The notes beneath the pieces were generated by a model, which was not told the origin of the DNA, did no database searches, and worked only from the letters and a program-made list of their open reading frames with translations. This document shows, piece by piece, positions 3,672-63,971 of a stretch of 64,000 nucleotides of DNA. The stretch is taken from contig NC_043010.1 in the NCBI RefSeq assembly GCF_006345805.1, positions 39,556,001-39,620,000 of the forward strand, read 5' to 3'. Every line of letters begins with the position of its first letter. The first letter of the stretch is position 1. The stretch is from Octopus sinensis. Taxonomy: Eukaryota. Both the position numbers and the translations under genes were made by a program.

Positions 3672-3739
<68 letters not shown>

Positions 3740-4804: not shown

Positions 4805-4844
<40 letters not shown>

Positions 4845-5218
4845 CTGTGTGTGTGTGTGTGTGTGTGTCTGTGTCTGTGTATGTGTGTGTGTGTGTGAGT
4901 GCTTGGCCTTACCATTCACCGTCTAACAACTGAAACAATTAAAAAGATGAATAATACAGGATATTAGGAACCTTTATTTTAGTTGCATTCCTGGTATTGA
5001 AACTGTTTTTCTCTCATTCACAATTTCATTAAGCATTTCACTCTTTCTTTCTATTTTTCTAGAAAGAGCGAGATAGAGAGAGAGAGAGTGGGATAGAGAT
5101 AAAGAGAGAGACAAAGTGAACGTGGGTAAGTAGGATTTAAGTGTATTTTCTTTACGGCTGACTATATTTCTTCGTTGCCTCTTTAGATTCGTGAAGCTTA
5201 AATACTATACAAGCTGTA

Positions 5219-6417
5219 CGAGTTGTTGTCAAAATGTTCCCGGATTAGTTACGTTTAATAAAAAGTAACTTATTTTCTTGAGTTTTAACATTATCTCTGT
5301 CTACATAGTCACCTTGCGCAGCGTTCCTGCTATTTCTGGAATCCGGCCTGGTTGACGTTTTCGATAAGTCGAGGACCTTCTACGATTTACCCTTGTGGAG
5401 GCACATGGCCTAGTGGCTAGAGCAGCGGACTCGCGGTCGAGGAATCGCGTGTTCGAATCTCAGACCGGACGATGTGTGTGTTTATAAGCGAAATACCTAA
5501 GCTCCATGCGGCTCCGGCAGAAGGTAATGGCGAAACTTCTGCTGACTCTTTCGCCACAACTTTCTCTCATTCTTTCCTCCTGCATCTTGCAGCTCACCTG
5601 CGATGGACCGGCGTCTCGTCCAGGTGGGGAACCTATACGCCAAGAAACCGGGAAACCGCCCCTTATGAGCCAGGCATGGCTCGAGAAGGAACAAACAACA
5701 AAACAACAACGATTCGCTCTGGATTTCGACAACGGTTTGAAAACAGCGACCTTTCAGCTGCATTTTCCTCTTGGGGAATAGATGGAAGTCCGTGGGTTCT
5801 AAATCTGGCTAACTGGACGCTAGCGGAAGCGATACCATGATGTTTTTTAGCAAGAAACGCACGAGGGAGGAAGTTTCGGTGTAGAATCTAATTCTTCGCA
5901 CTCCACAGATCCAATGGCTTTCGCCAAATGCCCTTCCTCAGACGCTTCTAAACTTCACAGTAGAACTCTTGATTGACGGTCTTGCCCTGGGGGACGAATT
6001 CGCGATACACAAAACCACATTTCTTGGAGTGACTCGTGGCACGTCTCCCAAATCGTTCATCCTCTTCCAAGGACGCTCTTCCGCTTCCGAAGCGCCCGTT
6101 CCACTTGAAACATTGTGTAGGGCCCATTGCCTCGTCACTGTAAGCTTGCCGAAGCATGATCACGGTGTTTGTAAAAGACTTCTCAAGTTTAATTCGAAAT
6201 TTCACATTGGCTTTTTGTTGCTGTCCATGACAAAATGGCAGACTACAGCAATACACGTGATCACAAAAAACACTAATTTCACAACTTGTGAAGTAAACAC
6301 AGCGATGTCACTCGGCAGACTGCCTCACCTTGCTACCTCTCACCTCTCACACAACCATGAGCTGCCATCTATTGGTGTGCTACAGAACTAGTCCGGGAAC
6401 TTTTTGATATCACCTAG
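5219..6417 (-). mobile_element. Internally deleted mariner transposon with a nested SINE
   Basis: Imperfect TIRs: cgagttgttgtcaaaatgttcccggattagt and actagtccgggaactttttgatatcacctag. ORF 5948..6256 has the mariner HTH region (ANVKFRIKLEKS...QAYSDEAM...SLEEDERFGR) joined directly to EFVPQGKTVNQEFYCEV. Confidence 0.88.
5396..5710 (+). mobile_element. tRNA-derived SINE family B inserted in the mariner
   Basis: A-box tggcctagtgg, B-box gttcgaatc, CAA-rich tail; head shared with copies at 7126, 18105, 26090 and 36378. Confidence 0.88.
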
Positions 6418-7125
6418 AATCATATATCCAACTAGCGTGTCATCAAAAGAAAAACATTATGAAACATTCTACAGGTCAAAATGGCTTCATGGGTTTAACT
6501 AACAAATTAAGGAACAGGGTTTGTCTATTTGGCAACATCCTCTTTCCTGTGATTGAACATTCCAAATGCCCTTACGATAAGAAAGAAAAAAACTGTCCAG
6601 GCATGCTTTTTCTAAGTACATTTTTTTCCCTAGCCGACTATCTGGATTGAATTTTACTTAATTTTGCATTAACTGTTTATTCTTCAATTTCAAATTCTCT
6701 TTATATTTGCTTATATTCCGTCAGAGGAAACATATTACAAACTGAATTCCTGGGTGAAGAGTGAATAAGCCAAACAGAATGATTCTACGAAGGACAGTCA
6801 GTATGCTAGAAATAATAGGTAAACCTCATCCCAAACACGCATCAACAACTTTAAAAAATTGATAATGTAATCATTGCTAAAACAAACTCTCTTTAAATAA
6901 TGTGATAGGGACGGCTATGTTGAAAAGAATAGCAAAAGATTACTCATATATATACTGTGTATTTCTGTTCACAATGACTTCAAATTTCCGCCTTGCAAGG
7001 GCTTTTTCTGGTAGGCGAGAATTCGAAATCACTATTGACAAACTCATCTTACAAGTAACTTACATTCTTTACATTAATTTATAACATTAATGTTGTTATT
7101 TGGAATGACTGTAATTAAAATGTGT

Positions 7126-7512
7126 GGAGGCGCAGTGGCCCAGTGGTTAGGGCAGTGGACTTGCGGTCATACAATCGCGGTCTCGATTCCCAGACCGGGC
7201 GTTGTGAGTGTTTATTGAGCGAAAACACCTAAAGCCCCACGAAGCTCCGGCAGGGTTTGGTGGCGAACCTTGCTGTACTCTTTCTCCACAATTTTCTCTC
7301 ACTCTTTCTTCCCGTTTCTGTTGTACCTGTAATTCAAAGGGTCAGCCTTGTCTTACCCTGTGTCACGCTTAATCTCCCTGAGAACTACATTAAGAGTACA
7401 CTTATGTGTGGATTACTCAGCCACTTGCACGCTAATTTCACGAGCAGGCTGTTCCGTAGATCAGATCAGCTGGCACCCTCGTCATCGCAACCGACGGATT
7501 GCCACCAAATAA
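7126..7512 (+). mobile_element. tRNA-derived SINE family B
   Basis: Head ggcgcagtggcccagtggttagggcagtggacttgcggtc...tcgattcccagaccgg; body shared with 18105 and 36378. Confidence 0.9.
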
Positions 7513-8646
7513 AATGCACGTGTGTGTGTGTGTTTGTGTGTATGTAAAATAGCAAATTACAGTACTATCCTTGTTGCTCCTATATCATTTACACGAAAAA
7601 TACTGATCGGGAGAATTGCTTGAGATGAATGAAATAATTTGAGGTGTCATTTGCTTTTGTGAAATCAATATCATACAAGTTCGACTTCGTCTTTCATTCT
7701 TTCAAACGTCAATAAGCTAACTCTCAATCAAATACTAAGAGATTTTAATCGACCGTTCCCTTCCCTGGAAACCTGTGTCCTTGCATCTGTTTTTAGACAC
7801 CATTTTTTTTTAAAGATAACTTCATTACTACTCCTTTCATTCAATTATTATTAGAGTTGAGAATCTATAGGGACAGATATTTAATGCCAAGCTTCACAGA
7901 CTGCCAACTCATTATACTTGTTGGTTATTTATTTTGTACTGAAAAACCGATGTTTTAGACCTTGATTTTTTTGTATTTTTCCATAAGATGAATTATTAAG
8001 TAGGAGATAGCAGCCTTAATTTAGTGGGCAACGAAAACTTTAACGAAAAGATATTTCACGAGTAATAAAAAGAAATTAGATGTTGATAGTTCATATCTTT
8101 TCCCAGCATGCTATATAGCATGTGTGAAAATGAAATGCTAACATCTGGAGAATCGTAATTGGCTCACAAATTCAAATGACTACCGAAATAACTTCCAGCC
8201 CTTCCTTTTCATTTGAACAACTACATACTAATTATTGATTAAATTGGTGAAAATTCTTCAGAGGAAGACTCCAAAGGGAGCGTTAACATTTTTCATCTGT
8301 AAATGACGAGCAGTGTTATGGCATTAATCAAATTTGGATAATGACCATTTGCCTTCAGCTGAAAAGTTTCCAAACTTATGAAATACAGATATTTGATTTT
8401 CCACCAGACTGACGAAGGAAATTTAGCCGGTTACTTTATTAGAAATATTAGCACTGGCTTGATTAAATAGGTTTGAAAATTTATGTTCGAAGATATATGT
8501 ATATACAGAAAGACGTGGGTGAAACAGGGGAAGTGTATTTTGCCGGAACTCCCTTTAATGTTCATATTGATCTCTACTTAAATAAATACGTTCTTTCCCA
8601 ATCCTCTCTATATACAGATATACGCAAATGTGTACATATATATATA

Positions 8647-9052
8647 GGCATAGAAGTGGCTGTGTGGTAAGTAGTTTGCTTACCAACTATATGGTTCCTG
8701 GTTCACTCCCACTGCATGGCATCTTGGGCAAGTGTCTTCTAATATTGCCTCGGGCCCACCAAAGGTTTGTGAGTGGATTTGGTAGACGGAAACAGAAAGA
8801 AGACCGTCGTATATATACATATATATATGTGTGTGTGTGTATGTTTGTGTGTGTATGTTTGTCCCCCCAACATCGTTTGATAACCAATGCTGGTGTGTTT
8901 ACGTCCCCGTAACTTAGCGGTTAGGCAAAACATCCGTTGGAATAAGTACTAGACTTACAAAGAATAAGTCCTGGGGTCTTTTTGCTCGACAAAAGGCAGT
9001 GCTTCTGCATGGCCACAGTCAAATGACTGAAACAAGTAAAAGAATAAAAGAG
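8647..9052 (+). mobile_element. SINE family A, full length
   Basis: tRNA-like head (tggctgtgtggtaag...ggttcactccc), CORE-like cttgggcaagtgtctt, internal TA/TG microsatellite, conserved 3' body, taaaaga tail. Confidence 0.92.
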
Positions 9053-9331
9053 TGTATATACACTGTTCAAAGAGTTTTACATCTTCAGAAATTCTCCTTT
9101 TCCATCAGGGATTATTTCCTCTTCTAACCGTCGCTGTTCTGTTCTCGGTAGTTCTCAGTTCCATTCTTTCCGCCACAATCCTGCTAGTAGCCATGATAAG
9201 ATTATTTGTTTGTCGACGTTCTTTGTTTCCATATGTCTCGATACAAATATATATCTATCTTTGTTTTCATTAATTTTTCTACTGTAGGACTTAGTCGAAC
9301 GAATCGACCCCTGGACTTATTCTTTGTAAGC

Positions 9332-9373
<42 letters not shown>

Positions 9374-9514
9374 TGTGTGTGTGTGTGTGTGTGGTGTGTG
9401 TGTATGTGTGGGTGTGTGTGTATACACATACATATATACATACACATAGATAGATAGGTAGAAAGATAGATATCCCCATAACTTGTCGAACCGCTAAGTT
9501 ATGGGGACGTAAAT

Positions 9515-9547
<33 letters not shown>

Positions 9548-9549
<2 letters not shown>

Positions 9550-9968
9550 CGCAGGAGTGGCTGTTTGGTAAGTAGCTTGCTAACCAACCACATGGTTCCG
9601 GGTTCAGTCCCACTGCGTGGCATCTTGGGCAAGTGTCTTCTGCTATAGCCCCGGGCCGACCAATGCCTTGTGAGTGGATTTGGTAGACGGAAACTGAAAG
9701 AAGCCTGTCGTATATATGTATATATATATATAAGTGTGTGTGAATATGTTTGTGTGTCTGTGTTTGTTCCCCTAGCATTGCTTGACAACCGATGCTGGTG
9801 TGTTTATGTCCTCGTCACTTAGCGGTTCAGCAAAAGAGACCGATAGAATAAGTACTGGGCTTACAAAGAATAAGTCCCGGGGTCGATTTGCTCGACTAAA
9901 GGTGGTGCTCCAGCATGGCCACAGTCAAATGACTGAAACAAGTAAAAAGAGAAAAAGAAAGAGAAAGA
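9548..9968 (+). mobile_element. SINE family A, full length
   Basis: Same organisation as 8647. Confidence 0.92.
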
Positions 9969-12041: not shown

Positions 12042-12409
12042 ATGCTAAAGCAAAATTAATAACGTTTGCTGCATAGAAAAGAGACAATCAGTGCTAGAAT
12101 TTTCTAAAGAGAATATAAATGTATCAAGTGATGCAGAAAGAAAGGAAATGACGCTTATCTGAGGTTAAGGAATCATTGCCATACAGATAATAAATGCATA
12201 AACACAAGCATATGATCACCCGCGTCGCGTGCGTAAGATTAAAAAAACGCATACACGCACACACACACATATACACACACACACATATTTCGACAAACAA
12301 TTTTGGTGTACAGCTATGCCAGCGCAGTTAAGAAGTTCGATTCAAAAATAAAATATGCTGGTTCGTTCCGGGAACAGTCTAACTGCTCCAAATTTCCATT
12401 TTTTTCTAT

Positions 12410-12823
12410 ATGCGCTGGAGTGGCTGTGTGGTAAGTAGCTTGCTTACCAACCACATGGTTCCGGGTTCAGTCACACTGCGTGGCATCTTGGGCAAGTGTC
12501 TTCTACTATAGCCTCGGGCCGACCAAAGCGTTGTGAGTGGATTTGGTAGACGGAAACGGAAAGAAGCCCGTCGTATATTTGTATACATATATATGTGTGC
12601 GTGTATGTTTGTGTGTCTGTGTTTGTCCCCCTAGCATTGCTTGACAACCGATGCTGGTGTGTTTATGTCCCCGTAACTTAGCGGTTCGACAAAAGAAACC
12701 GATAGAATAAGTACTGGGCTTACAAAGAATAAGTGCCGGGGTCGAGTTGCTCGACTAAAGGCGGTGCAATCAAATGACAGCATGGCCGCAATGAAATGAC
12801 TGAAACAAGCAAAAGAGAAAGAG
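12410..12823 (+). mobile_element. SINE family A, full length
   Basis: Same organisation as 8647 and 9548. Confidence 0.92.
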
Positions 12824-13320
12824 TCCGCAGGTAACCTGCTTCCCGTGATTGGAATTTTGGTACGTGCTCACTGTAGATAAGACAAAGATATTCCTACCTC
12901 CCCAACGCAAACGTCAATACAGACCATATACGTGTTTGTGTGTAAATACACATATATGTATTTGCACACACACATTTATATGCATATGTATACATTCTAA
13001 CTTAGGAAGCTTGTTTGAATTAGTTCCCTTTGAAAACGTCGTAAGTGATGGACTTTGATGAAATTGCTATTATGTTAAACTGCTGTATATCCAAATTTAT
13101 CCAATATTTTCAATATTTATTTTTGCTTGAAATAGCTGGGGTTTTTTGTGGGGGGGGGGGGCAAACCATCGCATCTCCAGCAGTTTCAGATGCCAAGATA
13201 CCAGAAATTGTCAAAGTGTAGTACAAAGGTTTAGCTATGGATTGGTAAAACTATTTTTTCGTTCACTGAAAAAGTAACGTTTTGGACTTAGACTTAGGAC
13301 CCTTTTCCATAATAACAATG

Positions 13321-14493: not shown

Positions 14494-14863
14494 TGCGAGT
14501 ATGTGTGAATGAGTGTGTGTGCATGTATGCGTGTGTGTGTAGATAGAGATTCATAGATAAAGAGAGAGAGTGAGAGAAAGAAGGAGAAATATATACTTAG
14601 ATAAATAAATGTATATATATCTAGACAGATAGATATATTGACATATACATGAAGATACACACATACACACACACATAGATAAGATTTTCATACCCACATA
14701 GCAACTGTTGAGAGTGTTAGTCGGTATTTAGTGTTTGATTCCGGTCTAAAAACTCAAAATTAATTCTACCGCGGTGATCCCACCATACACACAACTTAAT
14801 CTTTTTTCAATGGAGCTCAGCCTTTGAGGCAACTTGTGGGGATATATCCCAATCAATTACTCT

Positions 14864-15257
14864 CTTTTCTCTTTTACTCTTTTACTTGTTTCAGTCATTT
14901 GACTGCGGCCATGCTGGAGCACCGCCTTTAGTCGAGCAAATCAACCCCGGGACTTATTCTTTGTAAGCCCAGTACTTATTCTATCAGTCTCTTTTGCCGA
15001 ACCGCTAAGTGACGGGGACGTAAACACACCAGCATCGGTTGTCAAGCAATGCTAGGGGGACAAACACAGACACACAAACACACACACATATACATATATA
15101 CGACAGGCTTCTTTCAGTTTCCGTCTACCAAATCCACTCACAAGGCATTGGTCGGCCCGGGGCTATAGAAGACACTTGCCCAAGATGCCACGCAGTGGGA
15201 CTGAACCCGGAACCATGTGGTTGGTTAGCAAGCTACTTACCACACAGCCACTCCTGC
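14864..15257 (-). mobile_element. SINE family A, full length
   Basis: Near-identical reverse complement of the 9548 copy. Confidence 0.92.
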
Positions 15258-18104: not shown

Positions 18105-18426
18105 GCTTCCAGTTGCTCCCACCAACGAAACAGCCTGCTCGTGAAATTAACGTGCAACTGGCTGAGCACTCCACACATAAGTGTGCCCTTAAAGTAGTTC
18201 TTGGTGAAATTCAGTGCAAGACAGTGTGTGACAAGGCCTGTTCTTTGAAATTGAGGTACACCAGCAACAGAAATAAACAGTGAGAGAAAGTTCTGGTGAA
18301 GGAGTACAGCAGGGCTTGCCACCACCACCTGCCGGAACATCGTGGAGCCTTAGGTGTTTTCGTTCAATAAACATTCACAACGCCCGGTCTGGCAATCGAA
18401 ACCGCGATCCAACGACCGCCTCCACA
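18105..18426 (-). mobile_element. SINE family B
   Basis: Reverse complement of the 7126 copy, with a deletion in the head. Confidence 0.88.
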
Positions 18427-19542: not shown

Positions 19543-19627
<85 letters not shown>

Positions 19628-19802
19628 GTATTATGTTATATATAATATATATATGTATATATATATATAATATATATATAATATATATTATATATATATA
19701 TATATACATATAAATATATATATATATATAATATATAATATATATCTATATACATATAAATATATATATAATATATATATATAATGTATGTATGTTATAT
19801 AA

Positions 19803-19878
<76 letters not shown>

Positions 19879-19986
19879 TATATAATATTATATATATATA
19901 GTAGGTCCCGGGTTGATTCGGGGTTAACCACAGTAAATAAGGTACTCAATACATAGCAGAGTAAAATTCATTTATTATATAGAAGG

Positions 19987-20036
19987 AGCTTCTACAGACT
20001 AGAACTGTTTCATTCAAGAGAAATCTTCAGGAAGCT
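19987..20036 (-). ncRNA. Minimal type I hammerhead ribozyme
   Basis: Reverse complement agcttc-CUGAAGA-tttctcttgaat-GAAA-cag(ttctagt)ctg-UA-gaagct; stem I agcttc/gaagct, stem II ttc/gaa, stem III cag/ctg, cleavage triplet GUA. Confidence 0.85.
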
Positions 20037-21054
20037 AGTTAACAAGAATTGTATTGGCATTTTACATTTAGGCAGGTTTAACGGGGTGTTGGTGGGGGAC
20101 TTTTTGGGGGTAGGCATAGCGCAAAATATCTACTTGGGGGAGTGGTCAAGGAGTCAGTGTTAATTAGATAGAATAATAAATAAAAAAATAAAAAAATAAA
20201 AAATAAAAAAACCTATATATAAAAAAAAGGGGGAATAGAGTTTTAGGTAAATAAGGAGATTCTCACTTATACCTATGCACACATGTATACATACATACAC
20301 ACACATACAAACATATATACATATACATACACACATACATACACACACATATATATACATATATATACACTTACACATACACGTACATATACATATCTAC
20401 ACATACACATATATGTATACATACACACACTCACATGCATACACGTATACACACACGACCTCACATACATATACGCACAGAAAAATATATATACACATAC
20501 ACACACATATACTCACATACACGCATACACACACATATCCACACACACACATGCACACACAGCACACTAGTCCCTATATATACATATATATACACATACA
20601 CACACATATACACACACATACATATACATACATGTATATATATACATATGTGTACCTATGCAAACCTACACATACACACATATATATACACATACAAATA
20701 CAGACCCATTCCCTAATTTTAATTTTATTATCTTCGTTATTACTTTTGTTATCTTTGGCCGCTTGGTCACAACATCTTGGCTATGACAGCCAGTCCATTT
20801 ATCTGTCTACTGGAAAACAAGCACTCATTCACTCACGCACACTCTTTAGCACGTACTCTCACTCATTCGTACACTCATACACATACACGCACGCACGCGT
20901 TATATTCATACATACATCCATCTACATACATTCACGTATATACACATACGTACGCGTACCTACAGATTTATGTCTACACTCTTAGAAGGCTAGTCTATAT
21001 ATATACACCAATAAATATAAATACACACACATACATATACACCTACATACAAAT

Positions 21055-21088
<34 letters not shown>

Positions 21089-21487
21089 ACATTCACATAT
21101 ATATATACACATATATACACACACACACACATACACACACATACGCATACACACACATATACATATATATACACTACACGCACATACACATGTACATGCG
21201 TACCCATACACACACACACACGCGCGCATCCATATATACACATAAGTACACACATGCGTAAAAGTATACATATATCTATGCTTACACATACACACACACA
21301 CGCGCGCCTCCTTATATTCATACTTACATGCATACTCAAAAAATAAGTAAATAGTAAAATATATATACGCGCAGTTATTCGTACATGCATACTCAAAAAA
21401 TAAATAATAAATATTAAGTATATGTACGTGCAGTTACCTATTATATAGACGGTTACATACATATAACTTACACACACACATATATAT

Positions 21488-21547
<60 letters not shown>

Positions 21548-21616
21548 CAACATATATACACATACGCATACACATACATATATACATACATATATATATA
21601 CACAATATATAGATAT

Positions 21617-22518
21617 ACACAATATATAGATATTAATTCCAACCACCCCAAAAATATATTAGATAACCTAGTAAAAAGTGTCTCAATTAGAATTTCTAGC
21701 CTGTCCGCCACGGAAGATATCTTTAAGGCCGCAGCCCCCTATTACAACGAGGCCCTGGCCCGCAGTGGCTTCAAAGATAAGATTACCTATACTAGTATAG
21801 CCCCACGCCAACCCAGGAAAAATAGACGAAGACACATTAGCTGGTACAACCCCCCCTTCAACCGTGAGGTCGCTACACCTGTAAAGCAAAAATCTTCTTC
21901 ACTCTCCTACAGAACACTTCCCCACCCAACATAAGTACTACACTATCCTAAATAAGAACACTATTAGACTCTCCTACTCTACCACGCCATCTAGCCAGGA
22001 ACCTAGCCAACAACAATGTGAAAAAACTTAACATATCTACTTTTTCCGAGGCCCATCCAACGTCCGATAGCAATTGCAACTTCCCTGATAAAACCACCTG
22101 CCCCCTCAACAACAACTGCCTACAGAGGGACCTAGTATATACATGCGAGGTAAGATCAGGCCCTGACGATAAAAGAAAATCCTACGTAGGAATGACGTCA
22201 AACAGCTTTAAGACCCGTTGGTACGCACACACACACTCGTTCCGGCGACAGAATAAATCCAACCAAACTACCCTCGCCGCCCACATCTGTTACCTTAAAA
22301 GGAACTCCATCCCCTTCAAGACCAAGTGGAAACTACTACAGAAGGCGCGCTCGTACACAGGATGCCATACCTGCTGTGACCTCTGCATATCGGAGAGCCT
22401 AGAGATCTTGTTCGCCAAAGGCCCTCTCCTTAACAAAATCTCAGAACACTCCCCAAATTGTATGCATAAGAAGTATGCGAACTACAAGAACTATAGACCT
22501 ACCCGGCAACCAGATTGA
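21617..22518 (+). pseudogene. PLE polyprotein C-terminus: RT thumb/linker plus GIY-YIG endonuclease
   Basis: QYIDINSNHPKNIL...RISSLSATEDIFKAAAPYYNEALARSGF...RHISWYNPPFN...HFPTQHKYYTILNKNTIRLSYST (about 3 single-base shifts at 21885-22010), then the open frame CNFPDKTTCPLNNNCL...LVY...YVGMT...FKTRW..H...CDLCISE...LLNK...CMH. Confidence 0.92.
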
Positions 22519-23010
22519 TGACACCCCACCCACAAACCCCCCCCAAAACCCACCGTTCCCCTAGCACCCCCGATTACTTTTTCTCCTAAGACCTCTCACA
22601 TATTGTATGTGCACGCTTGTATATGTGTATCATGTGTGTATGCATATGTATGTGTATATGTATGTGTGTATGTATGTGTATGTATGTATAAAATATTATA
22701 TAATTAGGGCTTAGTGAAATGGATTGCTTTGCCGCATACTGAACCTTCTAGAAATAGCAGCCAAAAAAGTTTTTTAGCCTCTTCCACCACTTAGAGAATA
22801 TTTTCCCTCAGACATTGTTTACTCATAAAAATAATGGTCCTTTTACATACTGAATACTTGGTGAAATTGATTAATAACTAATTAATTTTACCCTCAATTG
22901 TTGATATATGTATGTGTGTGTATATATATGTGGGTGTATGTGTATATGTACATGTATGTATATGTGTATGTATGTATGTATGTATATATATGTGTGTATA
23001 TATATATGTA

Positions 23011-23064
<54 letters not shown>

Positions 23065-23326
23065 TATATGTATGTGTGTGTATATGTGTATTATGTATGT
23101 GTATGTTTATGTATATGTATGTATATGTATATGTATATGTATGTGTGTGTGTATATGTATGTATGTGTATATATATGAGTGTACGCGAGTATGTCGATGT
23201 ATATGTACGTATGTACAGTTATGTGTATGTGCAGGTATGTGAGTGTAGATACAAATTGTAGATGTGTATATATGTGTGTGTGTGTATATATACATGTATA
23301 TAGGTATATGTATGTGTGTGTATATG

Positions 23327-23365
<39 letters not shown>

Positions 23366-23454
23366 GCGAGTATGTAGAGATATAAGTATGTGCATGTGTA
23401 TATGTATATGTGTGTATATGTATGTATGGGTATGTGTATGTGTATGTATGTATG

Positions 23455-23487
<33 letters not shown>

Positions 23488-23726
23488 GTATGCATATACG
23501 TATGTATGTATGTATGTATGTATGTATATGTGTATGTATATATGTGTGTAAGTGTGTGTATATATGTAAATGTAAGTGTGTCTGCTTGTATGAGAATGTA
23601 TGTATGTTTGCACACATGTATATATGTGTGTGTATGTGTATATGTATATGTATATGTGTATATGTGTGTGTATATGTATGTATATGTGCATGTATGTGTG
23701 TACGTATGTGTGTGTGTGTGTATATA

Positions 23727-23799
<73 letters not shown>

Positions 23800-24097
23800 G
23801 CGTATATGTATGTATATATATATATATATATGTGTGTGGTGTGTATACATGTGTGTATGTGTATGTATGTATGTATATATATGCATGTGTATGTGTATGT
23901 GTATATGTACATATGCGCGTACGCTCGTGTGTTTATGCATATGTAGGTACGTAGAGTTATCTATGTTGTATTTATATGTACATGTGTGTAAGTATGTATA
24001 TATATGTATATATGTATGTGTATGTGTGTGTGTATATATATATGTTGTATATATGTATGTGTATGTGTATGTGTATATATGTATAGTTATATATATA

Positions 24098-24151
<54 letters not shown>

Positions 24152-24531
24152 TGTGTAAGTTTATATGTATGTATCCGTCTATATAATAGGTAACTGCACG
24201 TACATGTACTTAATATTTATTATTTATTTTTTGAGTATGCATGTACGAATAACTGCGCGTATATATATTTTACTATTTACTTATTTTTTGAGTATGCATG
24301 TAAGTATGAATATAAGGAGGCGCGTATGTGTGTGTGTATGTGTAAGCATAGATATATGTATACTTTTACGCATGTGTGTACTTATGTGTATATATGGATG
24401 CGCGCGTGTGTGTGTGTGTGTATGGGTACGCATGTACATGTGTATGTGCGTGTAGTGTATATATATGTATATGTGTGTGTATGCGTATGTGTGTATATGT
24501 GTGTGTGTGTATATATGTGTATATATATATG

Positions 24532-24578
<47 letters not shown>

Positions 24579-25657
24579 ATTTGTATGTAGGTGTATATGT
24601 ATGTGTGTGTATTTATATTTATTGGTGTATATATATAGACTAGCCTTCTAAGAGTGTAGACATAAATCTGTAGGTACGCGTACGTATGTGTATATACGTG
24701 AATGTATGTAGATGGATGTATGTATGAATATAACGCGTGCGTGCGTGTATGTGTATGAGTGTACGAATGAGTGAGAGTACGTGCTAAAGAGTGTGCGTGA
24801 GTGAATGAGTGCTTTTTTCCAGTAGACAGATAAATGGATTGGCTGTCATAGCCAAGATGTTTGTGACCAAGCGGCCAAAGATAACAAAAGTAATAAACGA
24901 AGATAATAAAATTAAAATTAGGGAATGGGTCTGTATTTGTATGTGTATATATATGTGTGTATGTGTAGGTTTGCATAGGTACACATATGTATATATATAC
25001 ATGTATGTATATGTATGTATGTGTGTGTATATGTGTGTGTATGTGTATATATATGTATATATAGGGACTAGTGTGCTGTGTGTGCATGTGTGTGTGTGGA
25101 TATGTGTGTGTATGCGTGTATGTGAGTATATGTGTGTGTATGTGTATATATATTTTTCTGTGCGTATATGTATGTGAGGTCGTGTGTGTATATATACATG
25201 TGTGTATACGTGTATGCATGTGAGTGTGTGTATGTATACATATATGTGTATGTGTAGATACGTATATGTATGTGTATGTGTAAGTGTATATATATGTATA
25301 TATATGTGTGTGTATGTATGTGTGTATGTATATGTATATATGTTTTTGTATGTGTGTGTATGTGTATACATGTGTGCATAGGTATAAGTGAGAATCTCCT
25401 ATTTACCTAAAACTCTATTCCTCCTTTTTTTTATATATAGGTTTTTTATATATAGGTTTTTTTATTTTTTTATTTTTTTATTTTATTTTTTTATTTTTTT
25501 ATTTTTTTATTTATTCTTCTATCTAATTTAACACTGACTCCTTGACCACTCCCCCAAGTATGATATTTTGCGCTATGCCTACCCCCAAAAAATTCCCCCA
25601 CCAACACCCCGTTAAACCTGCCTAAATGTATAAATGCCAATACAATTCTTGTTAACT

Positions 25658-25708
25658 AGCTTCCTGAAGATTTCTCTTGAATGAAACAGTTCTAGTCCTG
25701 TAGAAGCT
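25658..25708 (+). ncRNA. Minimal type I hammerhead ribozyme
   Basis: agcttc CUGAAGA tttctcttgaat GAAA cag ttctagtc ctg UA gaagct; all core nucleotides present; predicted cut after 25702. Confidence 0.85.
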
Positions 25709-25719
25709 CCTTCTATATA

Positions 25720-25764
<45 letters not shown>

Positions 25765-26089
25765 GCAACACAAGTGAGGTATGGAACAAGTGTGTGTAAC
25801 TGATGATGTTAATGCACTTGTTTTATTGGATATTGTCCGACTTTTGTCACCCGGACCAGCTACATCAATGTTCGAAGCTTACTAAATTACTAACTTTCAA
25901 CACTTTCCTATTAATGTGAACACATCAGGTTGATGTATTGAATTCCTCTGCCATGGTCACGCATGGAACCTTGTGGGTGGAGAAATGACCATACTCTCCA
26001 TAATTAATCTCAAGCACTGCTATAAACAATTGAAGTGACTAATAAGGTTATATCTTAGTATACGAATAGTATTACTTATATAAATAGTA

Positions 26090-26202
26090 GAGGCGCAATA
26101 GCCCGGTAGTTTAGGCACCGGACTCGCGTGCGTCCGATCGCGGTTTCGATTCCCAGACCGGTCGTTGAAAGTGTTTATTGAGCGAAAACGCCTAAGGCTT
26201 CA
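26090..26202 (+). mobile_element. SINE family B head
   Basis: aggcgcaatagcccggtagtttagg...ttcgattcccagaccgg...gtgtttattgagcgaaaac. Confidence 0.8.
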
Positions 26203-26534
26203 GGTTCGTGTGTCATATAGCTAGCTAGAAATCTTGTACCATGATTTTTTTTTATATCAAGACTTCTCATATACCCCTCGTATTTATATGTATGTGTGTA
26301 TAGGTATATATATATCTTCAGACAATAGCTGTCTCAAGTAGTCGCCTAAATCGAGTGGGAAACTGATTGGTAAAATGAATTAATATTTACATTTCGCTGC
26401 ACAGTAGATTTTGAAAAAGTTAGGACGCATAAACACGAGGCAAGTGGTTTTGATCGTCTCGTGTGTATATGTTTAACCCTAGGTGGGACTGCTGAAGAGG
26501 AATCACACCTATATGGTTGAAGTATAAATATCAA

Positions 26535-27181
26535 TAAAGAATGGTGGTTCAACAATGCATCAATATCTACTGGAAAGAGCAGTCGATAATATACGACATT
26601 ATAATAAAGCTTCATTGTATATACTGGCAAAGATGCGTTCGGGCGCGAAAATCAGAAATTTCATCTGACCCGGAGGAAGAACATGAAGTAACGGTCCTAA
26701 CCAGATGTCGATAATATAGTACCTTGATTTCAAACTCTTCAAGATACGTTTGCTAACGTAAACTTGATTAGTTCTCTTTTGCTAGATTTACCAGAACATA
26801 ATTTCAAATGTTGCCACATCAATGGCATTATACTCGCTTAAACGCCTAACCGCTAACAGTTAGCGAGAATAGTGAAAAAGTTTACAAAGAAAATGTGGCA
26901 TCATTTGTAATTTTGTTCTTGTAAATCCAGCTGAAGAGAACTAATCAAGTTCACGTTAACAAACATATCGTGAAGAGTTTGAAGCCTAGGTCTTAGATTA
27001 CCCACATCGGGGTTAGACATTTAAATCATTTTCTTCCTACATGTAAGATGAAATTTCTTATGGTCGCCGCCAACACACATCTTTGCCAGTATATACAGTG
27101 AAGCTTTCTTATAGCGTCGTATATTATCAACTGCTATTTCCGGTAAATATTAGTGCATTGTTCTACCACCATTCTATATTT

Positions 27182-28783: not shown

Positions 28784-31140
28784 ATGTATATATATATGTG
28801 TGTGTGTTTGTGTGTGTGTATGTGTGTGTGTGTAAATACAAACATACATATATATGTACATAATACAAACATATACACATACATATATATATGAACACAC
28901 ACACATATACGTGTTGAAGAATGACTGACCAACCTTGCATTATTTGATAAATAATTTCTTAAAATGGTGGAGTGCTGTCAGATGGTACTCTACTTTAAAG
29001 AGAAATTATGTGAGTGACTGTTCGTGCTTGCGCGAAGTGCATAGGGAAGTGCATACTCACACACACGTGCACGTATGTATGCGTATACATAGTCTTACAT
29101 GCATAAATATACGAAAATCAATTTAACTAGTCGCACTGATATATATCCGTACATGATTTTTGGGGTGTTATATACACGCAAATGTGTGCATGTAATTTCA
29201 TACATATGTTCATATTCTCATTTATCATCGTCAACACACCCACGAACAATCATGCACACATATGTATCCATTTATACATGTATCCATACATACATGTATC
29301 CATACATACATGTATCCATGCATACACATATATATATTCGTAGGTGTGTGCGGCAATATACATATACTACAAGAAAGTTTTATGTTAGCCTCACTTGATA
29401 GTATTTTCACATTTGATTCCCAATTCTAATAATTTTCATGCTATTTTATGTCTAATTATTTCTTTGTATAATAGTGCACACTTTCTTAGTAAATATTGCT
29501 TTCATTATTTTATCACGCTCATAATCTCTCTTTTTTAAACAAGCATCACGGTAATCCAACAACAAAGGGAAAAGCAGTTTGTCAAGTGTTACCTTCTCCT
29601 GAAAGCACCATAGAGATTTCAGTTCAGTAACCCACCTGTAAGCTTTGCAGTGTGTGAGTGTGTGAGAGAGATGTGAAGAGAGAACATTGCACACAATGAA
29701 ATAAACAAACATGAAATGAAAAGATCGTATAAATGAAATGGCATTAGTACAGATGAATACGTCCTCGAATTTGTTGCCTCATAACATCCAGACAAATGGA
29801 AACCTTTTTACAAAATTTTCTACAAATACCACTTAAATGTCGTGGCTTCAGCGAGTGGGTGGAGAGAGGATTTTCGGAAAATTTACACGATCTGAATTTT
29901 TTCCCGCATAATTTTCGGGAAAATGGGCATCTTTGAATGAAAGTTTATACAAATACCTCCCAAACAACATAGATTACGATTATTACAAAACCTGTGAGGA
30001 AAATATTTTCGGGGATTTTCCCCATATTCTTAAAACCACTGCCTTCGAAATGATGGGGCTGGCGGGGGCGCATTTTTTGTATGAAGAATGTTTTGGAAAC
30101 TTTTTTTTTACACCCAACCTCTCTCATCACCCCACTCCGGAACTATTTTGGCCAAATTTGTTTGCTCTTGAAAACCATGCGAAGGGCATTTTCGGTAATA
30201 AATAAAAATAAATAGTCAACATTTTCAGAGGGAAAAGTGAGTGGTTTAAGGGCGATATGGCTGTTGTTTCTAGCACAGCCAAAGCCAACCTTCCTCCTTT
30301 CTTTATCACTCTCGCATGTATTGATGTGTTTCAATGTTTTCCCATAAATAAATTTATAAGCTATAAAAAAGAAAATTTGAGAAATTACGTAATTTTTGCA
30401 ACCCCACTGTAACCCCTGACCCCGATTGTTTCTGTTTAGAATTTAAAATATTGGAGACCCTGAGAAGGTCATTACTGGCATCTATCCCCATTGATTTTTA
30501 AAACGTTACATAAACGACAATTCATTTTAATAGCATAATTTTCTGTTAGAAAATATTTTTTTTCCTTATGCACACACACGGCTTTTCTTCATTGAGGTAG
30601 GGGTAAATATTTAGATTACAATTTAGTTTGTTGCATATAGCCCACCAATGGACCACGCGTTTGTTACTTCGGTATCACTATTCTATAAAATGTGTTTAAT
30701 GGGAGAGAAGCATTGAAAACACATCAATACATGTGAAAGTGAAAAGGGAGGGTGGTTTGGGTTGTGCTAGAAACAAGAGGGAAACCTCCCTTCAATTGTT
30801 CACCATTTCCTATGAAAATAATTGCATTTTTTTTGTTACCGAAAAGGCTTCTTACAACAGATAATAACCAAAATCGGTCCGGATAATTATTATTGTAAGG
30901 CTTATAGCGTTCCAAACAACGAAATTAGTTTTTAATGTATTTTTTAATGTTTTTAATGTATTTTTACAAAAAATTTACAGGTGCTTAAAAATATTTTCAT
31001 TCAATAAATAATGTTTTTACATTACATATACATTAATAGAATAAACTGTCGGTTTTCCAAATAGCTAATTGAAATTTGAAATGAAATTAGTGAAAGAGAA
31101 ACAGAGAGGCTTTGCAAATGAGAATGGAATACTCCGCAGG

Positions 31141-31332
31141 GAATGCAATGAATATTTAAATTTGTGAAGAACTGGACGCAGTGATTGCAATGAATGTCTG
31201 AATTTTGAAGAATAGGATGCAGTGAATGCAATGAATATTTAAATTTGTGAAGAACTGGACGCAGTGATTGCAATGAATGTCTGCATTTGTGAAGAATTAG
31301 ATGTAGTGAATGCAATGAATATTTAAATTTTC
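31141..31332. repeat. Minisatellite, ~42 bp unit with ~83 bp dimer structure
   Basis: Alternating units gaatgcaatgaatatttaaatttgtgaagaactggacgcagt and gattgcaatgaatgtctg...; about 4.5 units. Confidence 0.92.
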
Positions 31333-31505: not shown

Positions 31506-32752
31506 TAAGATTGTTTCACATGAAATGCCATATTTGAAAGGTAATAATAAAATGTTTCAAAAGTGTTAGAGAACTGATTTATTTAATCAAAGTAAGATCC
31601 ATGTTCATTTAAGACGTTTAACCAACGTTTTTCCAAGTTATATATACCATCTTTAAAAAATTCTTCTTTTGCTGTGATTAACAGTCCGAATGCTTCAATT
31701 ATCTCTTCTATATTTAAGAATGTTTTATTGCTTATGAAAAGCTCAGAATGCGTGAATAACTGATGATCAGTAGGAGAGTTATCAGGGGAAATGGGAGGAT
31801 GTTGCAAAATCTCATAATTCAGGCTTTGCAACTTTTGGACCGTAGCTTGAGGAATGCGAGGGCGTGCATTGTCGCGGAGCAAAATTGCGCCATCTCTATT
31901 CACTAGCCTGGGTTGCTTCTTTTTCAAATACACTTGCATACAATCAACTTCCTGGCAGTACGATGTTGCTGTTACCGATTTTCCTTGCTATAAAAAATGA
32001 ATAATGAATAACTCCCTTCGCAGACCAGCATACAGCGACCACTAACTTTTTAGGGCACAATGGTGGGTTTGGGTAGTGTTTAGGTGACATTCCTGCATTT
32101 AATCACTGTCCTGTTCTCCTGCTGTTGTCAAAGAGTATCTATTTCTCATCACAAGTAATGATTTGATGCAAAAATTGTCTTTTCCCAGTTGAGAAAGCAA
32201 TAAGGAGCACACTTCCAGGCGTCTTTTCCACTAAATCTCGCTGAATTGGTGTGGAACAAACCTACCTGTTCTTTTGATTTTCCAATTTGTAACAGGTATC
32301 CAAAAGCGGTTGCGTATGCTGTTTGGAGTTCTGATGAAAGTTTTCGGACCTTTGTTCTCAGATTTTGTTCAACCAATGCATTTAATCCATCATGCCCAAT
32401 AACTGATTTTGGCCTAACCAATGGGTTTTTTCAAGGCTGTCATGTCCTGAACGAGAGCTTTGGAACCATCTCTGAACAGTTCTGGTGTCAACAAAATCAT
32501 TACCAAAGGCTCGCTTGATATTCCGTTGAGCTTCTGCGAAGGAGTGACCCAGTCTGTACTCATACGAGAAATTCACTCAACATAGTTTGGTTGTTATCAT
32601 TTTCATAAGGTCTGTGGGTATGAATGTTGCATACCAATATTGTTGGAAAAGAAAAGGAGTCAAGAATAAATGTAAGGTATACATAATAGAGTTTTTAAAT
32701 GACTGAAATAACTAATAATTAAAAATGCGACATTTCATGTGAAACAAGCTAA
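31506..32752 (-). mobile_element. Full-length decayed mariner transposon
   Basis: TIRs taagattgtttcacatgaaatg / catttcatgtgaaacaagctaa; ~1.25 kb; transposase pieces YEYRLGHSFAEAQRNIKRAFG...QRWFQ, ILLRDNARPR, HPPISPDNSPTDHQLF and NLEKRWLNVLNEHGSYFD. Confidence 0.93.
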
Positions 32753-33647: not shown

Positions 33648-36377
33648 TTTAGCTTATTTTCACACACGTATAGCCCTGTTTCGAACAACAACTTTTTAAT
33701 AACATCTCAGATAGTGGATTGTCGTATCGCACGTTCGGATGACTTGCCTTTGCCAATAACGTACCTCTACTCAACTACCGAACTCTCACTTCCGACGGCT
33801 CGACTTAACAGGACTCGACGTCTAGTCTACCGACGGCTCTTCGACGCTTATTTCTTTATTTGGCACCACGGCCACAACACTGAGGAGGACACTACATGGA
33901 CAGACACAACACCACAATGGGGACATAAAACATAAAACGAATGAGAATGAAATGTTATATAAAAATGAAGAAAGGAAATGGCTGCATGGGCCCCATTTCC
34001 CATGCAGTACCATGTGAACGTTTACACGCACTATTTACAATGTTCTATTTTTCTATTGTTTTTTCTTAATCATCTTTTTTTTCTTTTTTTATATGAAACA
34101 CTTTTACTTTTTCCTTTCTTTTCTTTCAACAAAAGAATTTTACTTACTCTGTTTTTCCATTGTAATACCTCATGATGTCTTGCAAACAACTTGCACATGC
34201 AAGTGCTACCAGTTAAAAGCTCCGTATATCGGAAGCTAGTATGTGTATGGGGTCATCAGGAGAGAATGCGCGACGTTTCGAGGCCTACCTCTCGACGGCA
34301 TCAATGCGCACCGCTCCCGCCTCACTGATATGAGGCCCCGCTTGCTAGATCAGCTGGTTATGAAGAACTCAATATACTTCTAGCCATCGCTCATCGTCTC
34401 TTTTTAACCAAATGCAGTGGCTAGCCTTCTCCACTGTAGATTGGATATCAGTCATGGTGGTATTGACTTTACGATGAGTTAGGCCTTCTACGACTAGTCA
34501 TCACATCCACTATTTATACGTATTGGACTAGCCTACTTGTTGTCTGGGGCCTCCACACAACAGGATAAAAAAATCGCCGGTTATATAACAGATCGAGCAA
34601 TAATTTTCATTGAGACGCGGACTCAACGACCGCTTTAGTTATGCATAGTGATTTAATATTGATACTTTCATAATGTTAAATAATTCCAGGAATTTTAATA
34701 GCGAAATAAACATTCAAATGAATAAATACGGTAGCAAAACGTTTATATACTATTGAAGTATTTCTGAAGGGTGTTATTCCACCTTTGGTCACCTAAGGTA
34801 ATTGGAAATCGCTGATACTGAGGTCAATAGGGCTTCAATTTGACATGACTGCAGAAATTTTGGCTGTAATTAAGATTTTATCGAAAATTACGTTCAGTGA
34901 CGGTAGTGTTCAAAGTCATTGCAACATATGAAAGTGAATGGTTTATAACGAAATATATTATCACTTATGTAGTATCTTATAGCGCACTTCGAGTATAAAA
35001 CTTGCCAAATTAGTAAGGAAATCTATCTTGCTGGAGGAAAACTTACAAAGTCAATTAACGTTGGTTTGAAATGTGTTTATCAAAGCTAACTATCGAAATA
35101 TGAATAATAACTAGTCAATAGTGAATCATAAATGCATAAACCCGATGCATTTTTATGTGTTAATGTTAATATATTTCTCTAAGTGATTCATAATTAGATA
35201 GCGAAATATATCCTTTGTTATTAACCACAGCAGTGTATGTCTATCGTAGAAAATAATAGACATGGCAATTTGATTATTCAGTTTGCTTTATGGCTATATC
35301 AATATGGGCCTTTATTCTCTGAGATGGATTTTTCTGTTGCTGGTGAGAACTAACGAACAAGTTAGAGTGTAATTTTCTATTGCAATTATTTATTATCATT
35401 TATTATTAATATATTTAAGAAGTGTCGTATTTAGTCGATGTTATCTGAAACAATACATTGTATGCAAAAGAAATACTGGGGAAAATAAATCTCACCATCA
35501 TCCACTATGAAAATGTCCTTTTCCAATAATCTCTATGAGATTGCTTCACCTACTAAAAGCTAAATGGTTCTTCAGTTTTTATCAAAACTATATATATTCT
35601 AGATAGATCTAGGGTAGACTCTTCTGTCACGTCTGAAGTGACTGATCATAGGTTTGCTCATTCAAGCTTGACCTGTGGTTAAATAACGGCTTCAAGTGAA
35701 ATATTCAAATATTAAAACAGAAAAGAAAAAAAAAGAGGTTTGTATATATTGATTAGTGTATTTGAGTCAGTAACATTTGCAGCTCTTCCAGTCAATCCGC
35801 TACACTAATTTTATGTAAAGCTATATAATACACGGCAATTAAACGTCTCAGCGCTTAAGCTGTGTATCTTGCGATTCTGCTTCCCACTTTGAGAGGAAAT
35901 CTCAAACTTTCCAAAAATATGAACACTTCTTCATTCCATCGTATATTTATTTATTTGTTTACATATTTATTTTAGAATTTTATATTTAACTACTTTTGTT
36001 GGTAGCATAATGCAAGACTTGATACTGTTTACTAATGAAGTGTTTCAAATAAAACTGAGAGCTATTTCCCTTAGGCAGTTAACTTTCATTTCCAATTTTT
36101 TTACTGCCTGAAAGGCCACACCTTCAATACCAACAAAATTATTGCACACAGATACAGAAATATAAAAATAGAGAAGCAGAGAGATTTAGTGTTTTATCAA
36201 AATACTTCAATCGCTATGTTTATTTCAACTACCTAAAACTTTAACATTGCGCGTAACGCACACATGACGGAACGTCTATGTAGCCGCTCAGCGTGTTAGA
36301 CATTGCAGGAATTTTCTCTCTTAAAATCTCGCTTCTGCGATTTTTTTTCCTTTTCAATTAGAAGAACAATACTGGTC

Positions 36378-36875
36378 AATAGCCCAGTGGTTAGGGCAGC
36401 AGGCTCGCGGTCGGAGAATCGCGGTCTCGATTCCCAGACCGGTCATTGTGAGTGTTTATTGAGCGAAAACACCTAAAGATCCACGAGGCTCCGGCGGGGG
36501 TTGGTGATGAACCCTGCTGTACTCTTTCACCACAACTTTCTCTCACTCTTTCTCTGTTTCTGTTGTACCTGTATTTCAAAGGGCCAACCATGTCACACTG
36601 TGTGTCAAGCTGATTCTCCCCGAGAAGTACGTTAAGGCTACACGTGTCTGTGGAGTACTCAGCCACTTGCACGTTCATAAATGAGCTGCGACGTCACTGA
36701 TGCCAAGCTGTATCGGCCTTTGCTTTTCCCTTGGATAAGATCAGTGGCATGGAGAGGGGAGGCTGGTATGCATGGGCGATTGCTAGTCTTCCATAAACAA
36801 CATTGCCCAGACTTGTGCTTCGTAGGGTAACTTTCTAGATGCCATCCCATGGTCATTCATGACCGAAGGGGATCA
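36378..36875 (+). mobile_element. SINE family B, long variant
   Basis: Family-B head and body plus an extra ~190 bp 3' module. Confidence 0.85.
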
Positions 36876-56100: not shown

Positions 56101-56113
56101 TTTCAACAAGAAT

Positions 56114-56279
56114 AGGCGTAGGAGTGGCCGTGTTGTAAGTAGCTTGCTTACGAACCACATGGTCCCGGGTTCAGTCCCACTGTGTGGCAACTTAGCCAAG
56201 TGTCTTCTACTATAGTCTCAGGCCGACCAAAGCCTTGTCAGTGGATTTGGTAGACGGATATTGAAATACGCCCGTCGTA

Positions 56280-56318
<39 letters not shown>

Positions 56319-56319
56319 T

Positions 56320-56382
<63 letters not shown>

Positions 56383-56404
56383 GTATGTGTGTATATATAC
56401 ATAC

Positions 56405-56440
<36 letters not shown>

Positions 56441-56673
56441 CTGTGTGTGTGTATATGTTTGTGTGTCTGTGTTTGTCCCCCCAATATCACTTGACAAACG
56501 ATGCTGGTGTGTTTATGTTCCTGTAACTTAGCGGTTCGGAAAAGAGACCGATAGAATAAGTACTAAGCTTACAAAGAATAAGCCCTGGGGTCGATTTGCT
56601 CGACTAAAGGCAGTGTTCCAGCATGGTCACACTCAAATGACTGAAACAAGTAAAAGAGTAAAAGAGTAAAGAA
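56114..56673 (+). mobile_element. SINE family A with an expanded internal microsatellite
   Basis: Full head and body, ~190 bp internal TA/TG tract, (taaaagag)n tail. Confidence 0.92.

Positions 56674-63918: not shown

Positions 63919-63971
<53 letters not shown>

What the first reader, a model, noticed from the sequence alone, without database searches (positions are those of the whole stretch)
19901..25725. Hammerhead-capped, inverted Penelope-like element whose terminal repeats are mostly microsatellite
Seen: ~1.7 kb inverted arms surround a 5'-truncated RT-thumb/GIY-YIG ORF. The complex TA/TATG/TG tracts inside the arms are copied colinearly together with unique islands (e.g. tcttagaaggctagtc / gactagccttctaaga), and the ~3 kb downstream of the stop codon is also mostly microsatellite. 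Known: PLEs form inverted 5'-truncated pLTR structures and carry HHRs. Inference: much of the 'junk' compound microsatellite here is cargo retrotransposed by this family, which would make the element a microsatellite-spreading vehicle. A read-through transcript would also form a very long dsRNA.
Basis: partly seen in the sequence, partly recalled or inferred. Interest (0 to 1): 0.75.

Follow-up and report, generated by a model that had tools for sequence, protein, structure and literature searches.

The report
Microsatellite-tailed Hydra-type Penelope retrotransposon
This is one broken copy of a young jumping-gene family (a Hydra-type Penelope retrotransposon) whose 3-kb non-coding end is about 60% microsatellite and recurs in the same order at many other sites, so the element likely does spread microsatellite DNA, but it likely supplies under 1% of the genome's total.

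Summary
Observation confirmed. The ~1.65-kb arms are 98.8% identical (gaps aside), microsatellites included; the flanks are not inverted, and the same layout recurs genome-wide, so a foldback artefact is unlikely (no read-level test obtained). The element is a new family of Hydra-clade Penelope-like elements: diagnostic protein motifs, sense hammerhead, (TA)n targets. Its unit is about 5-6 kb, twice the published Hydra size, because the 3' UTR is 43-73% compound microsatellite in 34 of 34 copies, colinear well above background. So the cargo claim holds. 'Much of the junk' does not: about 2,200 insertions carry an estimated 1.4 Mb, roughly 0.5% of genomic microsatellite (34% in this window). 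Four sibling families have microsatellite-poor UTRs, and Penelope-borne microsatellites are already reported in shrimp. By-product: 94 of 96 inverted pairs have the 70-nt tail on exactly one arm, both arms share subfamily variants, and 72 of 177 arms stop at the hammerhead's 5' edge, which fits two coordinated priming events per insertion. dsRNA is untested.

The parts
19553..19900 (.). (TA)n target tract, left flank
   Evidence: TRF; 219 of 228 element ends are followed by (TA)4 within 12 nt
19901..19969 (-). ~70-nt tail: long 3' terminus, on the left arm only; the same sequence is the 5' leader of the unit at tandem junctions
   Evidence: tandem junctions in L071, L073, L074, L082, L092
19970..21610 (-). 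Inverted, 5'-truncated copy of the distal 3' UTR (left arm), 48% microsatellite
19987..20036 (-). Predicted type I hammerhead of the left arm (1-nt deletion in loop III, found in none of the other 33 UTR copies)
21600..21633 (+). Inversion junction with a 17-nt direct duplication (21600-21616, 21617-21633)
21621..22518 (+). 5'-truncated ORF: RT thumb, CxCX5C linker (degenerate here), GIY-YIG endonuclease of Hydra type; frameshifted (indels at ~21883, ~21913, ~21989 against L061)
22519..25657 (+). 3' UTR, ~3.1 kb, 61% compound TA/TG/TATG microsatellite, G-rich on the sense strand, with unique islands (about 22695-22905, 24189-24324, 24638-24931, 25377-25424, 25513-25657)
25658..25708 (+). Predicted type I hammerhead: 6-bp stem I, CUGANGA and GAAA core, 3-bp stem II behind a U-U pair, 4-bp stem III; predicted cut after 25702
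   Evidence: sequence; common variants fall on N7, loop II and loop III
25703..25725 (+). Short 3' terminus (23 nt past the predicted cut, no tail)
25726..25764 (.). (TA)n target tract, right flank; no target-site duplication can be defined

Best explanation
The locus is a dead, 5'-truncated insertion of a young Hydra-clade Penelope-like retrotransposon whose 3' UTR is largely compound microsatellite, and it likely arose when the element's enzyme nicked both strands of a (TA)n tract and primed two cDNAs from the same source RNA. Shown: family membership, the microsatellite UTR as a fixed part of the unit, (TA)n at the ends, one tailed plus one untailed end per insertion, shared variants between arms. 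Inferred: one cDNA starts at the distal site (tail end) and the other 70 nt upstream; each runs 5'-ward through the uncleaved hammerhead into the UTR for a variable distance (here 1.65 kb and 4.1 kb); the two are joined head to head by microhomology. Microsatellite is passive cargo lying between the ORF and the cis-acting end; it changes quickly by slippage, duplication and deletion (UTR 1.6-3.9 kb) and is delivered twice when both arms are long.
For: Hydra motifs DKT, RWR (for RWK), CxCX5C, CxxC and CxH around the EN E and N, no CCHH (against PMC8557442 section 11). 34 of 34 measurable UTRs are 43-73% SSR (6 of 39 other ORF loci had no hammerhead inside the fetched stretch). SSR-internal 24-mers in colinear order: median 175, range 29-909 in 33 copies, against 12-33 in 10 blocks of unrelated SSR. 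3471 exact hammerhead-motif hits, control 0; 72 of the first 100 lie in outward-facing pairs. 94 of 96 pairs are long+short. Arms agree at N7 in 75 of 75 pairs (62% expected), loop II 74 of 77 (56%), loop III 70 of 76 (76%); 7 variants are private to one locus and shared by its two arms among 35 pairs. The longer arm is the tailed one in 21 and the untailed one in 14 of 35 clear cases out of 46. In vitro precedent: two RT start sites bounding the tail, both strands nicked and extended (PMC11167929).
Against: No read-level confirmation of this junction and no expression data. 4-5 of 33 copies score at or near the null ceiling for colinearity (29, 34, 37, 62), and the null holds only 10 blocks. 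Arm concordance could also come from one subfamily being active at a time or from conversion between arms; 46 private variants are on one arm only. Exceptions to the pairing rule: L198 (two tails), L212 (none). PMC11167929 saw no difference in start site between strands, so it does not itself predict one of each. The hammerhead is not the predicted minimum-energy fold and its cleavage is untested.
Confidence: 0.8

Rival explanations
1. One reading: this family is a main source of the genome's compound microsatellite.
For: 34% of TRF microsatellite in the window lies in this one insertion. An older subfamily copy (L118, 92.5% aa identity) also has a G-rich SSR UTR with different sequence, so the lineage has carried SSR for some time and decayed copies would be unrecognisable.
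Against: 61 insertions chosen by hammerhead motif hold 39,853 SSR bp; scaled to 3471 hits this is about 1.4 Mb, 0.05% of 2.72 Gb, against 9.5% (window outside the element) to 13% (flanks) background. About a third of insertions are ~200-bp palindromes without SSR. Four sibling families have 0-31% SSR in short UTRs.
Confidence: 0.07
2. The inverted arm is made by fold-back: one cDNA self-primes at a short palindrome and copies itself back, and the short end is made on resolution (self-priming was proposed in PMC3846280).
For: Explains arm concordance and the one-tail rule at once; 12 arm ends meet in a perfect 4-nt palindrome at the 5' edge of stem I; inverted junction palindromes are known.
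Against: If copying always began at the tail end, the tailed arm should always be the longer; it is the shorter in 14 of 35 clear cases, this locus included. Many junctions carry non-palindromic filler bases.
Confidence: 0.2
3. The inversion is an assembly or foldback chimera, or the colinear microsatellites are chance similarity of simple repeats.
For: 7 one-base deletions are private to the left arm and 2 one-base differences private to the right among the islands, as expected from long-read error; no spanning reads were examined.
Against: Flanks are unique and not inverted; the two ends differ by the tail exactly as at 93 other pairs; colinearity is far above the SSR null for most copies.
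Confidence: 0.03
4. The UTR is a piece of ordinary host DNA captured once between an ORF and a downstream hammerhead end (as for the spacer of Pen1_Av, PMC3846280), not sequence that grew inside the element.
For: Host DNA is SSR-rich; L118 has a non-colinear UTR between the same two ends; spacer capture has precedent. This concerns the origin only and is compatible with the best explanation.
Against: All UTR tracts face one way (G 14324 vs C 1705 in SSR bases; L118 441 vs 59), whereas successive host tracts keep orientation in 17 of 33 cases.
Confidence: 0.3

Closest known systems
Hydra clade of C-terminal-endonuclease Penelope-like elements (Craig et al. 2021, PMC8557442), incl. Hydra-1_Obim
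   Same: Protein motifs, sense type I hammerhead near the 3' end (stem III arms as in Hydra-1_aMil), (TA)n insertion, partial tandems, inverted 5'-truncated copy, one-sided tail.
   Different: Unit 4.9-5.8 kb against 1.1-3.0 kb for the 25 Hydra-sheet rows seen; 3' UTR of 1.6-3.9 kb, mostly microsatellite; tail 70 nt against 30-40; N-terminus and hammerhead differ from Hydra-1_Obim by eye, so a different family.
Recently transposed Penelope copies carrying syntenic SSRs in Litopenaeus vannamei (Yuan et al. 2021, PMC7878876, Fig. 2g legend and text)
   Same: SSRs inside a Penelope element move with it and change length afterwards.
   Different: There two copies, clade and SSR share not given in the passages seen; here a kilobase-scale compound tract is the bulk of the UTR across 34 copies, with a genome-wide estimate.
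Microsatellite seeding by CR1-L3 and Rex LINEs in snakes (PMC6050309)
   Same: A retrotransposon's 3' end spreads SSR.
   Different: There a single terminal motif and a large genomic effect; here internal compound tracts upstream of a unique terminus and a small effect.
Poseidon of Anolis (PAc) in vitro (Frangieh et al. 2024, PMC11167929)
   Same: Two internal RT start sites bounding the tail, downstream of a hammerhead; AT-rich targets; uncleaved template.
   Different: Other clade; no pairing rule for the two sites was described in the text read.
Pen1_Av of Adineta vaga (PMC3846280)
   Same: Long spacer between ORF and 3' pLTR.
   Different: That spacer is unrelated between copies; here it is shared within the subfamily and is microsatellite.

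Membership tests
Penelope-like elements (EN+) | Single ORF with RT and C-terminal GIY-YIG endonuclease | tested here: met
   L061 652 aa open, L073 679 aa from the ATG; YRDD motif; weak Pfam GIY-YIG E 0.043; no Pfam RT or PDB hit; 801 homologues
Penelope-like elements (EN+) | Partial tandems (pLTR), inverted 5'-truncated copy, one-sided tail | tested here: met
Hydra clade | DKT in place of DKG; RWK near the N-terminus | tested here: met
   SDKTKN and RIRWRS (RWR variant)
Hydra clade | CxCX5C linker; no CCHH in EN; CxxC and CxH around conserved E and N | tested here: met
   CNCPDKTTC, CDLC..E, N..CMH in P0001; second Cys is F in the window copy
Hydra clade | Canonical hammerhead motif | tested here: met
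   Core and stems by inspection and variation pattern in 191 arms; Rfam negative
Hydra clade | Insertion into (TA)n | tested here: met
   219 of 228 ends
Hydra clade | Generally under 3 kb (descriptive, not diagnostic) | tested here: not met
   Hammerhead-to-hammerhead units 5019 (L082), 5837 (L073), 5388 (L119), 6208 with a nested insert (L118)
Hydra clade | Placement in the RT phylogeny with reference Hydra elements | not tested
   Reference sequences were only seen in a supplement; nearest named homologue cluster holds jellyfish proteins at 41-42%
Type I hammerhead ribozyme | Self-cleavage | not testable with these tools
   Only 3 of 177 arms stop within 20 nt of the predicted cut (sampling disfavours such arms in part)
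Non-LTR retrozyme | Non-coding tandem units each with a hammerhead | tested here: not met
   Unit encodes RT-EN; short copies are inverted pairs, not tandems
SSR-seeding retrotransposon | Accounts for a large share of genomic SSR | tested here: not met
   about 0.4-0.55% by extrapolation

The most novel reading that the evidence does not exclude
Every insertion of this lineage is a coordinated double-priming event in which one RNP uses both fixed start sites once each, on opposite strands of a (TA)n target and on the same RNA; the pile-up of arm ends at the hammerhead's 5' edge marks the capped 5' end of the transcript (a G precedes stem I in 18 of 22 non-palindromic arm ends, though about half of these G's could come from the partner arm). 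The lineage keeps a strand-biased, fast-turning microsatellite UTR that plants several new (TA)n target sites per long copy, so over time it and its decayed ancestors have supplied far more of the genome's compound microsatellite than the young copies show.
Probability: 0.2. Interest if true: 0.7.

Novelty: new variant of a known kind. Interest (0 to 1): 0.42.

Why it matters
It is a clean, countable case of kilobase compound microsatellite moving as retrotransposon cargo, and it puts a size on the effect: large locally, small genome-wide. Such UTRs are easily masked as simple repeat, which splits the element in annotation and can yield multi-locus microsatellite markers (inference). The family is also a rich natural record for the open question of how Penelope elements build inverted ends and one-sided tails (named as open in PMC8557442): a near-absolute one-tail rule, same-source arms and a sharp stop site give direct predictions for the existing in vitro system.

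Tried and rejected
Rfam: no hammerhead hit; mir-297, mir-466 and similar hits are low-complexity artefacts below gathering score. The repeat finder was swamped by SSR. Run-off at the hammerhead cut site as genomic proof of cleavage: rejected; 40 tail-only loci were mostly variant-hammerhead subfamilies, and 3 of 177 arms stop within 20 nt of the cut. A-to-I editing of the RNA as the source of the G-rich sense strand: not supported; A>G vs T>C 9:7 and 3:5 in the ORF, 3:7 and 5:12 in the distal UTR, 17:12 (p 0.056) and 2:0 in 8 close UTRs. Self-targeting into its own UTR as a frequent event: 2 borderline matches among 228 flanks plus one clear case (L078); no enrichment shown. Fold-back from a fixed primary end: disfavoured. 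Expression: no RNA holder listed, only contigs; this is no evidence either way. PDB and Pfam gave nothing useful for the RT.
Full report
1. Observation. The left arm (19970-~21610) aligns to the reverse complement of ~24040-25725 with 1630 matches, 20 mismatches and 96 gap positions. The alignment runs through the unique islands and the TA/TG/TATG tracts alike. Dust-filtered self-BLAST shows no inverted match outside 19970-25725, so the flanks are not mirrored as a foldback read would mirror them. Both ends abut (TA)n. TRF (period <=12) covers 48% of the left arm, 61% of the region after the stop codon and 9.5% of the rest of the window; the element holds 2802 of 8310 such bases. The ORF fragment 21621-22518 is truncated and frameshifted. 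A type I hammerhead is readable at 25658-25708 (+) and 19987-20036 (-), although Rfam and energy folding do not recover it.

2. The family. Own-genome searches gave 1243 candidates for the 20700-20990 island, 425 for the ORF piece and 891 for the first UTR island, 40 scored each, at 94-100% identity. An exact 21-nt hammerhead motif occurs 3471 times and a 25-nt tail motif 3334 times, controls 0. Tandem junctions in L071, L073, L074, L082 and L092 define the unit: hammerhead, 23 nt, 70-nt tail, short leader, ATG, ORF, long UTR, hammerhead. Singleton substitutions number 95 over 40 ORF segments of about 920 nt, so the family is young. The protein has DKT, RWR, a CxCX5C linker, CxxC and CxH flanking the EN E and N, and no CCHH, the features listed for the Hydra clade together with hammerheads and (TA)n targets (PMC8557442 section 11, read whole). 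It differs by eye from Hydra-1_Obim (supplement passages). Published Hydra rows seen are 1.1-3.0 kb (25 rows); this unit is 4.9-5.8 kb. The host is probably an octopus, which I take from an earlier scan note and did not test.

3. Is the microsatellite cargo? Yes. Of 39 ORF-anchored loci plus the window, 34 had a complete UTR in the fetched stretch; all 34 are 43-73% SSR and 1.6-3.9 kb long. Of 1676 unique 24-mers lying wholly inside the window's SSR tracts, other copies share a median of 175 in colinear order (29-909, n=33), against 12-33 in 10 blocks of unrelated SSR turned to the same strand. The three most diverged copies (29-37) are not separable from the null. L118, an older subfamily (92.5% aa identity), keeps both ends of the UTR and a G-rich SSR body but scores 19, at background: the composition persists while the sequence turns over. 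SSR bases in the UTRs are G-rich on the sense strand (14324 G, 1705 C), while neighbouring host tracts switch orientation at random (17 of 33 same). An editing origin for this bias was tested and not supported. Four other young Hydra-like families (17 loci, 33-42% identity to ours) have UTRs of 0.4-1.9 kb with 0-31% SSR in the four examined, so the trait is lineage-specific.

4. How much does it spread? Sixty loci covering 98 of the first 100 hammerhead hits on contig C1 hold 61 insertions, 85,062 bp, of which 39,853 bp are SSR inside family sequence; 28 of 61 carry 300 bp or more. Scaling to 3471 hits gives about 2,160 insertions, 3.0 Mb, and 1.4 Mb SSR, or 0.05% of the genome. Against 9.5-13% background SSR this is about 0.4-0.55%. 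The estimate covers one motif variant and 73 Mb of one contig, and may cut single-ended copies short; the variant subfamilies sampled were mostly ~200-bp palindromes, so doubling is a generous bound. Decayed ancestors are invisible to this test.

5. Insertion anatomy. 72 of the first 100 hammerhead hits are outward-facing pairs within 8 kb. Typing the ends: 46 of 46 pairs in the hammerhead sample, 29 of 31 in the tail sample and 19 of 19 in the ORF sample have one tailed and one untailed end, 94 of 96 in all (L140 contributes a duplicated pair; an earlier, stricter script gave 39 of 40). Arms agree in subfamily variants far above expectation, and 7 locus-private variants are shared by both arms among 35 pairs, against 46 one-arm variants. 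Either arm can be the longer: tailed 21, untailed 14, 11 unclear. Of 177 arms, 72 end 40-49 nt upstream of the predicted cut, where 45 is the 5' edge of stem I; 3 end within 20 nt, 10 between 56 and 125, 63 beyond. A 4-nt palindrome at that edge can inflate the peak, and the hammerhead sample cannot contain very short arms. Within the hammerhead from the core onwards, variants above 10% fall only on N7, two loop II positions and one loop III position (191 arms); stem I's 5' strand also varies, where truncation junctions confound the count.

6. Mechanism. Most likely (overall 0.8; the double-priming step about 0.6): the RT-EN nicks both strands of (TA)n and primes two cDNAs, one at each of two fixed internal sites 70 nt apart, on the same source RNA; both pass the uncleaved hammerhead and stop at variable points; their 3' ends join by microhomology, here leaving a 17-nt duplication. 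This extends in vitro results for Anolis Poseidon, which has two start sites bounding the tail, cuts and extends both strands and does not need hammerhead cleavage (PMC11167929, parts 1-3 of 4 read). The SSR is passive cargo between ORF and cis-acting end. Fold-back self-priming (PMC3846280, passages) is the main rival. A read-through transcript would pair over 1.65 kb, but no expression evidence was obtained, and no read-level check of the junction.

7. Against what is known. [quoted passage not shown] TE-borne SSR is known in shrimp, including Penelope (PMC7878876, passages), and snakes (PMC6050309, passages). PMC3124438 (passages) and bioRxiv 10.64898/2026.07.22.740005 (part 1 of 5) added nothing on SSR UTRs in the parts seen. 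Listings of searches showed no Hydra-clade element with a kilobase SSR UTR, but subscription journals, Repbase and Dfam are not covered, and a curated octopus library with 31 recently active Penelope-like families (PMC13282606, part 1 of 3; supplements not opened) may already hold this family. Earlier scan notes report fold-back Hydra ends and a nine-in-ten one-tail rule on other DNA; none matched the SSR-UTR words or this place.

8. Verdict. Real; a new, unusually long, microsatellite-laden family of a known clade. The cargo claim holds, the scale claim does not. Interest 0.42.

Noticed in passing
L106 (G000:C3:152800300-152810225), about locus 2900-5900: A 477-bp tandem repeat with one type I hammerhead per unit, 3 units on one strand and 4 on the other, between TA tracts, downstream of a sibling Hydra copy; looks like a non-LTR retrozyme array inserted in the same inverted way.
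   Followed up: partly
L101-L117: At least four other young Hydra-like families in G000 with long open ORFs (717-899 aa); two have long low-complexity inserts between RT and EN.
   Followed up: partly
L078, oriented positions ~6860-6980 and ~7520-7640: A tiny inverted insertion of the family's own end (arms stop at the predicted hammerhead cut) sits in a (TA)n tract of the family's own UTR, present twice through a duplication.
   Followed up: partly
L127-L217 mini-palindromes: A G precedes hammerhead stem I in 18 of 22 non-palindromic arm ends, where full copies have T; possibly a copied cap, but about half could be partner-arm sequence.
   Followed up: partly
window 19901-19969; L102 tail: The tail holds a short bulged hairpin whose arms resemble those in a sibling family's tail and in the published Hydra-2_Amil end, by eye; an earlier scan note proposed this as the RT signal.
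   Followed up: partly
L118 UTR: Older subfamily copy with a ~1-kb unrelated insert with duplicated ends nested in its microsatellite UTR.
   Followed up: no
window 8609-9061, 9510-9958, 12408-12824, 14863-15257, 56112-56672, 63053-63954: Dispersed ~450-bp repeat, 80-97% alike, with an internal microsatellite; probably a SINE. Family insertions often sit in the TA tracts of such repeats.
   Followed up: no
window 7124-7473, 18109-18419, 26087-26202, 36377-36678: Second dispersed repeat of ~300 bp, 78-88% alike.
   Followed up: no
window 26533-27180: 650-bp imperfect palindrome, 78% self-complementary; fold-back or MITE-like.
   Followed up: no
window 31583-31987 (-): 134-aa fragment resembling a mariner transposase (Pfam Transposase_1 E 0.17, below cut-off), next to a 42/83-bp tandem repeat at 31135-31330.
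   Followed up: no
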